This document shows, piece by piece, positions 63,941 to 63,993 of a DNA stretch of 64,000 nt (its first letter is position 1; each line of letters opens with the position of its first letter). Made by a program: the position numbers and the translations under genes. A model generated the notes under the pieces. It was not told where the DNA came from and did not search any database. It saw only the letters and a list, made by a program, of their open reading frames with translations. This stretch comes from Escherichia coli (GTDB taxonomy: Bacteria; Pseudomonadota; Gammaproteobacteria; Enterobacterales; Enterobacteriaceae): NCBI RefSeq assembly GCF_003334405.1, contig NZ_QOWM01000001.1. One strand, 5' to 3'.

Positions 63941-63993
63941 TAAATACCCGACTAAATCAGTCAAGTAAATAGTTGACCAATTTACTCGGGAAT
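63941..63993 (+). promoter_or_regulatory. IscR type-1 binding sites of the iscR promoter (gene lies beyond window end)
   Basis: aaatacccgactaaatcagtcaagtaaat and aaatagttgaccaatttactcgggaat resemble the two known IscR sites upstream of iscRSUA. Confidence 0.55.

What the first reader, a model, noticed from the sequence alone, without database searches (positions are those of the whole stretch)
63941..63993. Window ends inside the iscR promoter: two IscR type-1-like sites immediately after the BIME array
The sequences at 63941-63993 resemble the two IscR operator sites of the isc promoter. The window therefore cuts the iscRSUA operon off at its promoter, and the iscR coding sequence cannot be assessed.
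Basis: established knowledge. Interest (0 to 1): 0.2.

Follow-up and report, generated by a model that had tools for sequence, protein, structure and literature searches.

The report
Known IscR operators of E. coli isc promoter

Summary
Confirmed, and already known. The published 25-bp IscR type-1 consensus matches the 64-kb window at only two places: 63944-63968 (24/25) and the abutting 63969-63993 (22/25). No other 25-mer on either strand scores above 18/25, and none is expected in shuffles. The window is E. coli. Its last 601 nt are 100% identical to many complete genomes; in one of them, strain M217, iscR starts 77 nt past the window end, followed by iscSUA-hscBA-fdx-iscX. The promoter stretch is base-for-base identical to K-12 MG1655, which by my recollection is the strain where these sites (A and B) were mapped. 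It is single-copy in 5425 of 5426 E. coli genomes. A scan of one genome per species using only site B as bait found 61 loci: 53 lie upstream of an iscR homologue and 4 upstream of erpA. Every scored Enterobacterales locus has a second type-1 site abutting site B, as here. With the transcription start 68 nt before the ATG (my recollection), site A is -65..-41 and site B is -40..-16. The -35 (TTGACC) lies inside site B, and the window ends at -9, one base short of the end of the -10. The mechanism is holo-IscR autorepression by promoter occlusion. Low interest.

The parts
63944..63968 (+). IscR type-1 operator, site A (ATACCCGACTAAATCAGTCAAGTAA); -65 to -41 relative to the iscR transcription start
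   Evidence: It matches the type-1 consensus at 24/25 and is one of only two hits in the window. It is identical in K-12 MG1655. A type-1 site (19-24/25) abuts site B in every Enterobacterales locus scored, although site A was not part of the search pattern. Mean identity across 39 Enterobacterales loci is 0.76, against 0.52 for the 25 nt just upstream.
63969..63993 (+). IscR type-1 operator, site B (ATAGTTGACCAATTTACTCGGGAAT); -40 to -16; covers the -35 hexamer and most of the spacer
   Evidence: It matches the consensus at 22/25. Its 18-base core ATAGTTGACCNNNTTACTCGG lies upstream of an iscR homologue in 53 of 61 loci from Gamma- and Betaproteobacteria, and upstream of erpA in 4 more. The footprinted P. 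aeruginosa site B is ATAGTTGACCTAATTACTCGGATAA (PMC6599224).
63973..63978 (+). -35 hexamer TTGACC of the iscR promoter, inside site B
   Evidence: This is a sequence reading: a 5/6 match to TTGACA, 17 nt upstream of CAGACT. It falls at -36..-31 if the transcription start is 68 nt before the iscR ATG (start position from my recollection). The generic promoter scan does not call it, because the two hexamers total 8/12 and its threshold is 9/12.
63996..64000 (+). First five bases (CAGAC) of the -10 hexamer CAGACT, preceded by TG at 63993-63994 (extended -10-like); the sixth base lies beyond the window
   Evidence: The continuation was read in L001. GTCAGACTTG is about 100% conserved across 39 Enterobacterales loci. 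The assignment as -10 is inferred from spacing.
63716..63897 (.). BIME-type array: two 91-nt units, each a pair of oppositely oriented REP palindromes; this is context, not part of the operator
   Evidence: Direct repeat D1 has 2 copies at 95% identity, with inverted repeats I1-I12. K-12 has three units. There is an Rfam naRNA4 (REP-derived) hit at 63778-63849.
62976..63716 (+). trmJ, the upstream gene on the same strand
   Evidence: It passes the NCBIfam TrmJ equivalog model at 525.8 bits against a cutoff of 280 and is annotated trmJ in matching genomes.

Best explanation
Positions 63944-63993 are the two tandem, abutting 25-bp type-1 IscR operators (sites A and B) of the E. coli iscRSUA-hscBA-fdx promoter. 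The [2Fe-2S]-loaded IscR dimer binds these sites. Site B covers the -35 hexamer and the spacer, and site A lies directly upstream, so bound IscR keeps RNA polymerase off the promoter and represses its own operon. When Fe-S demand rises, or when the cluster is oxidised or lost, holo-IscR falls, the sites empty and the operon is derepressed. This is a negative feedback loop on Fe-S cluster supply. Shown here: motif match, uniqueness in the window, identity to K-12, iscR downstream, and cross-species conservation of both sites in the same register. Taken from the literature: cluster-dependent binding and repression. Inferred or recalled: the exact transcription start and hence the -65/-16 numbering.
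For: There are only two consensus hits in 64 kb, they abut, and none is expected by chance; the next best 25-mer scores 18/25. iscR and the rest of the isc operon follow in identical genomes. The downstream protein is an IscR equivalog. The sequence is identical to K-12 MG1655 across the promoter. It is single-copy and at least 99% identical in 5388 of 5426 E. coli genomes. The site-B core lies upstream of iscR in 53 of 61 species hits and upstream of erpA, another known type-1 target, in 4 more. Site A, which was not selected for, is present in all Enterobacterales loci scored and is better conserved than the flank. From the literature: the isc promoter carries type-1 motifs that bind [2Fe-2S]-IscR specifically, PiscR-lacZ is derepressed in a delta-iscR strain, and oxidised or apo IscR does not repress (PMC12594620). 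[quoted passage not shown] The homologous P. aeruginosa sites A and B were footprinted at -67..-43 and -42..-18 (PMC6599224, PMC3899308).
Against: Nothing substantive. Binding cannot be tested in silico. The primary E. coli mapping papers (Schwartz 2001; Giel 2006, 2013) are not in the held library, so the -65..-41 and -40..-16 coordinates and the 68-nt leader rest on my recollection plus the geometry. The window itself does not contain iscR; its presence is inferred from genomes identical over the last 601-2795 nt. Part of site B's conservation could reflect the -35 hexamer rather than the operator, and site B conservation in the fetched loci is partly by construction, since it was the search pattern.
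Confidence: 0.97

Rival explanations
1. The two matches are chance resemblances in an AT-rich promoter region. The conservation would then reflect only core promoter elements (-35 or UP-like sequence), not an operator.
For: Site B contains the -35 hexamer, and the region is AT-rich.
Against: No hits occur in 100 shuffles, and the next best 25-mer in the window scores 18/25. The spacer half of site B (TTACTCGGGAAT) and all of site A lie outside the core hexamers. Both are conserved across genera, and the substitutions in site A keep the inverted-repeat half-sites. The same box precedes erpA in other taxa.
Confidence: 0.01
2. The sites are operators for a different Rrf2-family regulator such as NsrR, or are IscR type-2 sites that also bind apo-IscR.
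For: Rrf2 regulators recognise related AT-rich inverted repeats, and the IscR protein shows weak similarity to the NsrR model.
Against: Neither an NsrR-like 11-1-11 consensus (written from memory) nor the published type-2 consensus matches anywhere in the window, even with 3 mismatches. The type-1 consensus matches at 24/25 and 22/25. The literature assigns type-1, holo-specific binding at isc (PMC12594620).
Confidence: 0.01
3. The source genome is rearranged just past the window end, so the operators are orphaned from iscR in this strain.
For: The window stops at -9, so contiguity with iscR is not directly visible.
Against: In 5424 of 5426 complete E. coli genomes, the 199 nt spanning the sites and the iscR start are contiguous.
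Confidence: 0.01

Closest known systems
E. coli K-12 MG1655 PiscR IscR sites A and B (Schwartz 2001; Giel 2006, 2013; cited in PMC12594620)
   Same: The sequence is base-for-base identical from the last BIME unit through the iscR start codon. The same genes flank it: trmJ upstream and iscRSUA downstream.
   Different: The only difference is the neighbouring repeat array, which has two 91-nt BIME units here and three in K-12. The operators themselves do not differ.
Pseudomonas aeruginosa PAO1 iscR promoter sites A and B (PMC3899308, PMC6599224)
   Same: Both have two abutting 25-bp type-1 sites, with site B overlapping the -35 and spacer and site A upstream. Site B is nearly the same sequence (ATAGTTGACCTAATTACTCGGATAA).
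   Different: P. aeruginosa site A is more degenerate: 68% identity to the consensus as reported in the paper, and 18/25 in the PA7 locus. Binding there is reported as stepwise or cooperative, whereas in E. coli it is reported as independent. The leader is shorter (about 41-44 nt from site B to the ATG, against 83 nt here). No minor site C is reported there.
Type-1 IscR sites at erpA and nfuA
   Same: They share the consensus and are repressed by holo-IscR (PMC8593673). The site-B core precedes erpA in Pseudomonas, Salinicola and an unnamed gammaproteobacterium.
   Different: Those promoters carry a single site rather than a tandem pair.

Membership tests
IscR type-1 operator | Match to the 25-bp consensus ATASYYGACTRWWWYAGTCRRSTAT | tested here: met
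   Matches of 24/25 and 22/25, the only two hits in 64 kb, with 0 expected.
IscR type-1 operator | Position overlapping or abutting the core promoter of an Fe-S biogenesis gene repressed by IscR | tested here: met
   The -35 TTGACC lies inside site B, and iscR starts 83 nt after site B in identical genomes. The position of the transcription start is recalled, not tested.
IscR type-1 operator | Conservation of the site in orthologous promoters | tested here: met
   Of 61 site-B-core loci, 53 precede iscR. Site A is present in all Enterobacterales loci scored and is more conserved than the flank.
IscR type-1 operator | Binding that requires the [2Fe-2S] cluster (holo-IscR binds, apo-IscR does not), with repression in vivo | not testable with these tools
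   Literature only, and for the identical K-12 sequence: PMC12594620 (PiscR-lacZ, EMSA and anisotropy on an isc type-1 site), which cites Giel 2006 and 2013.
IscR type-2 operator | Match to AWARCCCYTSnGTTTGMnGKKKTKWA | tested here: not met
   No match with up to 3 mismatches anywhere in the window.
BIME / REP array (context) | Tandem units made of oppositely oriented imperfect REP palindromes in an intergenic region | tested here: met
   Two 91-nt units at 95% identity, each with two palindromes in opposite orientation. There is a REP-derived Rfam hit, and copy number differs between strains. Assignment to the BIME-2 subtype (Y/Z2) is from memory and was not tested.

The most novel reading that the evidence does not exclude
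The copy number of the 91-nt BIME unit 46 nt upstream of site A (two here, three in K-12 and strain 27992) might tune isc expression between strains. Possible routes are altered termination of trmJ read-through or altered local supercoiling and nucleoid-protein binding. Separately, rare natural lesions of site A, such as the 44-nt deletion in strain 27992, could reveal how dispensable site A is in vivo. None of this was tested here.
Probability: 0.05. Interest if true: 0.3.

Novelty: already known. Interest (0 to 1): 0.05.

Why it matters
It matters only as an annotation check. The window ends at about -9 of the iscR promoter, so any pipeline that reads this window alone sees the operators but not the gene they control. 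The biology, holo-IscR autorepression of Fe-S cluster biogenesis through type-1 sites, is textbook for E. coli, and this sequence is identical to the reference strain. No open question becomes testable through it.

Tried and rejected
1. I tried to read the primary E. coli mapping papers and could not: Giel 2013 (PMID 23075318, PMC4108476), Rajagopalan 2013 (PMC3676455), three PMC ids recalled from memory for Schwartz 2001 (PMC64955) and Nesbit 2009 (PMC2709974), and Desnoyers 2009 (PMC2693151). None is held.

2. A full-text search for the exact site sequences found nothing. The -65/-41 and -40/-16 numbering and the 68-nt leader therefore remain my recollection, cross-checked only by geometry.

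3. The generic sigma-70 scan found no promoter in the region. TTGACC plus CAGACT total 8/12, below its 9/12 threshold. This is not evidence against the promoter.

4. I looked for the reported minor 'site C'. The best additional type-1-like 25-mer near the promoter scores only 15/25, at about +10..+34, beyond the window. I did not pursue it.

5. NsrR-like and IscR type-2 consensus searches gave no matches.

6. Three of the 61 cross-species hits (L012, L019, L028) have no recognisable Fe-S gene downstream. About 9 chance matches are expected for an 18-base pattern in roughly 6x10^11 positions (my arithmetic), so these are probably chance.

Full report
**Observation**

The end of the window reads ...GGTTAA ATACCCGACTAAATCAGTCAAGTAA ATAGTTGACCAATTTACTCGGGAAT GTCAGAC. 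The published IscR type-1 consensus is ATASYYGACTRWWWYAGTCRRSTAT, quoted in PMC6599224 and PMC3899308.

Searching that consensus with up to three mismatches gives two hits in the whole 64-kb window:
- 63944-63968, with 1 mismatch.
- 63969-63993, with 3 mismatches.

None is expected in 100 dinucleotide-preserving shuffles. I also scored every 25-mer on both strands, about 128,000 positions. These two score 24/25 and 22/25, and the next best scores 18/25. The two sites abut with no gap.

**Context**

Upstream lie suhB (62054-62857, minus strand) and trmJ (62976-63716, plus strand); trmJ passes the NCBIfam TrmJ equivalog model. Two 91-nt repeat units follow, at 63716-63806 and 63807-63897, 95% identical. 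Each is built of two oppositely oriented REP-like palindromes, so this is a BIME-type array. Rfam's REP-derived naRNA4 model hits inside it. A 46-nt A-rich spacer separates the array from site A, so 'immediately after' is a slight overstatement.

**What follows the window**

The last 601 nt are 100% identical to many complete E. coli genomes. Identity to strain M217 runs unbroken for 2795 nt back from the window end. In M217 the next gene begins 77 nt beyond the window end. It is annotated iscR and is followed by iscS, iscU, iscA, hscB, hscA, fdx and iscX.

Its product passes the NCBIfam IscR equivalog model at 344.7 bits against a cutoff of 275. It carries Glu43, Cys92, Cys98, Cys104 and His107 (translation). 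PMC6599224 names the three cysteines and His107 as the cluster ligands.

The 199 nt covering the sites, the leader and the first codons of iscR are single-copy. They are present in 5425 of 5426 complete E. coli genomes and at least 99% identical in 5388. From the last BIME unit through the iscR start, the sequence is identical to K-12 MG1655.

**Promoter geometry**

- TTGACC at 63973-63978 lies inside site B.
- Seventeen nucleotides later comes CAGACT at 63996-64001, preceded by TG at 63993-63994. Its last base is already outside the window.
- If the transcription start is the G 68 nt upstream of the iscR ATG, then site A is -65..-41, site B is -40..-16, the -35 is -36..-31, the -10 is -13..-8, and the window ends at -9.

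The 68-nt leader is my recollection of Schwartz 2001, Giel 2006 and EcoCyc; those papers are not held. The resulting numbers coincide with the published site coordinates as I remember them, and they parallel the footprinted P. aeruginosa arrangement of -67..-43 and -42..-18. The generic promoter scanner does not call this promoter because the hexamers total 8/12. The decamer GTCAGACTTG is essentially invariant across 39 Enterobacterales loci, which supports its role.

**Independent comparative test**

I scanned one genome per species (100,044 species) for the site-B core ATAGTTGACCNNNTTACTCGG. It returned 61 loci:
- 53 have an IscR homologue downstream. In 52 the gene starts 10-83 nt after the site. 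In one Thiobacillus locus it lies 846 nt downstream, beyond cysE.
- 1 locus is truncated.
- 4 have the box 61-79 nt (measured from the start of the box) upstream of erpA, confirmed by the NCBIfam ErpA equivalog model for two representatives. erpA is a known type-1 target (PMC8593673).
- 3 have no evident target, consistent with the few chance hits expected for an 18-base pattern.

Site A was not part of the search pattern, so it serves as an unbiased test. In every Enterobacterales locus scored, the 25 nt directly abutting site B score 19-24/25 against the consensus. The substitutions preserve the inverted half-sites, for example GACT...AGTC becoming GAGT...ACTA. Pseudomonas loci upstream of iscR score 18-20. 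The betaproteobacterial loci and several other non-Enterobacterales loci (Alcanivorax L005, Halieaceae L023) lack an adjacent site A.

In an alignment of 39 distinct Enterobacterales loci, mean identity to E. coli was:
- 0.76 over site A.
- 0.52 over the 25 nt just upstream of site A.
- 0.35 over the 70-nt upstream flank.

**Mechanism**

The literature states that the isc promoter carries type-1 motifs bound specifically by [2Fe-2S]-IscR. PiscR-lacZ is derepressed in a delta-iscR strain, and neither apo-IscR (C92A) nor oxidised IscR represses it (PMC12594620). [quoted passage not shown] Site B covers the -35 and the spacer, and site A lies directly upstream. The most likely mechanism is therefore promoter occlusion by holo-IscR, giving negative feedback on Fe-S cluster supply.

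What is shown here is sequence, position, uniqueness and conservation. Binding and repression come from the literature on the identical sequence. The transcription start numbering is recalled.

**Rivals**

- A chance match is excluded by the statistics and the conservation.
- NsrR-like and IscR type-2 consensus sequences have no match in the window.
- A rearrangement just beyond the window is very unlikely, given contiguity in 5424 of 5426 genomes.

**Verdict**

The feature is already known and identical to the reference strain. Interest is low.

**Side observations**

- K-12 has three BIME units and the window has two.
- One clinical isolate, strain 27992, has a 44-nt deletion that removes the left half of site A.
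- trmJ-isc synteny, with the box retained, extends to Thiobacillus.

Noticed in passing
window 63716-63897; L002 (K-12 MG1655) 733-1183: The BIME array between trmJ and the iscR promoter varies in copy number. The window and strain M217 have two 91-nt units; K-12 MG1655 and strain 27992 have three. Only 3992 of 5426 genomes cover at least 80% of the 601-nt query in one place, which hints at further length variants.
   Followed up: partly
L064 (E. coli strain 27992, NZ_CP195627.1), about 2990-3010; corresponds to window 63907-63950: A blood isolate has a 44-nt deletion joining ...ACAACAGGTA directly to CTAAATCAGTCAAGTAA. It removes the A-rich spacer and the left half of IscR site A and leaves site B intact. 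It is the only one of 5426 genomes to show this. It could be a real operator lesion or an assembly error.
   Followed up: partly
window 63778-63849: An Rfam naRNA4 (RF02564, nucleoid-associated ncRNA) hit at 72.2 bits lies inside the BIME array. It most likely just reflects REP sequence similarity. I did not check for any evidence of expression.
   Followed up: no
L043 (Thiobacillus MAG), reverse-complement coordinates 2029-3622: The gene order is trmJ homologue, site-B-like box overlapping the trmJ 3' end, cysE, then iscR about 846 nt downstream. The trmJ-isc neighbourhood and the box therefore persist in a betaproteobacterium, with cysE inserted.
   Followed up: partly
L025, L057 (Pseudomonas), L054 (unnamed gammaproteobacterium), L061 (Salinicola): The same ATAGTTGACC...TTACTCGG box sits 61-79 nt (from the start of the box) upstream of erpA, overlapping the stop codon of the preceding ORF in Pseudomonas. 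This is consistent with erpA being a type-1 IscR target.
   Followed up: partly
L012 (Thiobacillus MAG) 6601-6621: A site-B-like box lies between a divergent membrane-protein ORF and a 93-aa ORF that has no NCBIfam match. It could be an unknown IscR target or a chance match.
   Followed up: no
window 112-227, 11953-11995, 18462-19293(-), 22076-22290, 25703-25779(-), 34959-35106: Other Rfam gathering-score hits are 5S rRNA, ES036, AsrC (antisense of rseC), the rncO leader, ohsC antitoxin sRNA and GlmY. By my recollection, they fit the E. coli chromosome segment between an rrn operon and isc.
   Followed up: no
L001 6619-6643 (would be window 64018-64042, beyond the end): The best additional type-1-like 25-mer near the promoter (TACCCCCACTTTTACAATAAAAAAC) scores 15/25 and lies at about +10..+34. 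It might correspond to the minor, non-conserved 'site C' mentioned for E. coli in PMC6599224. I could not verify this because the primary paper is not held.
   Followed up: partly
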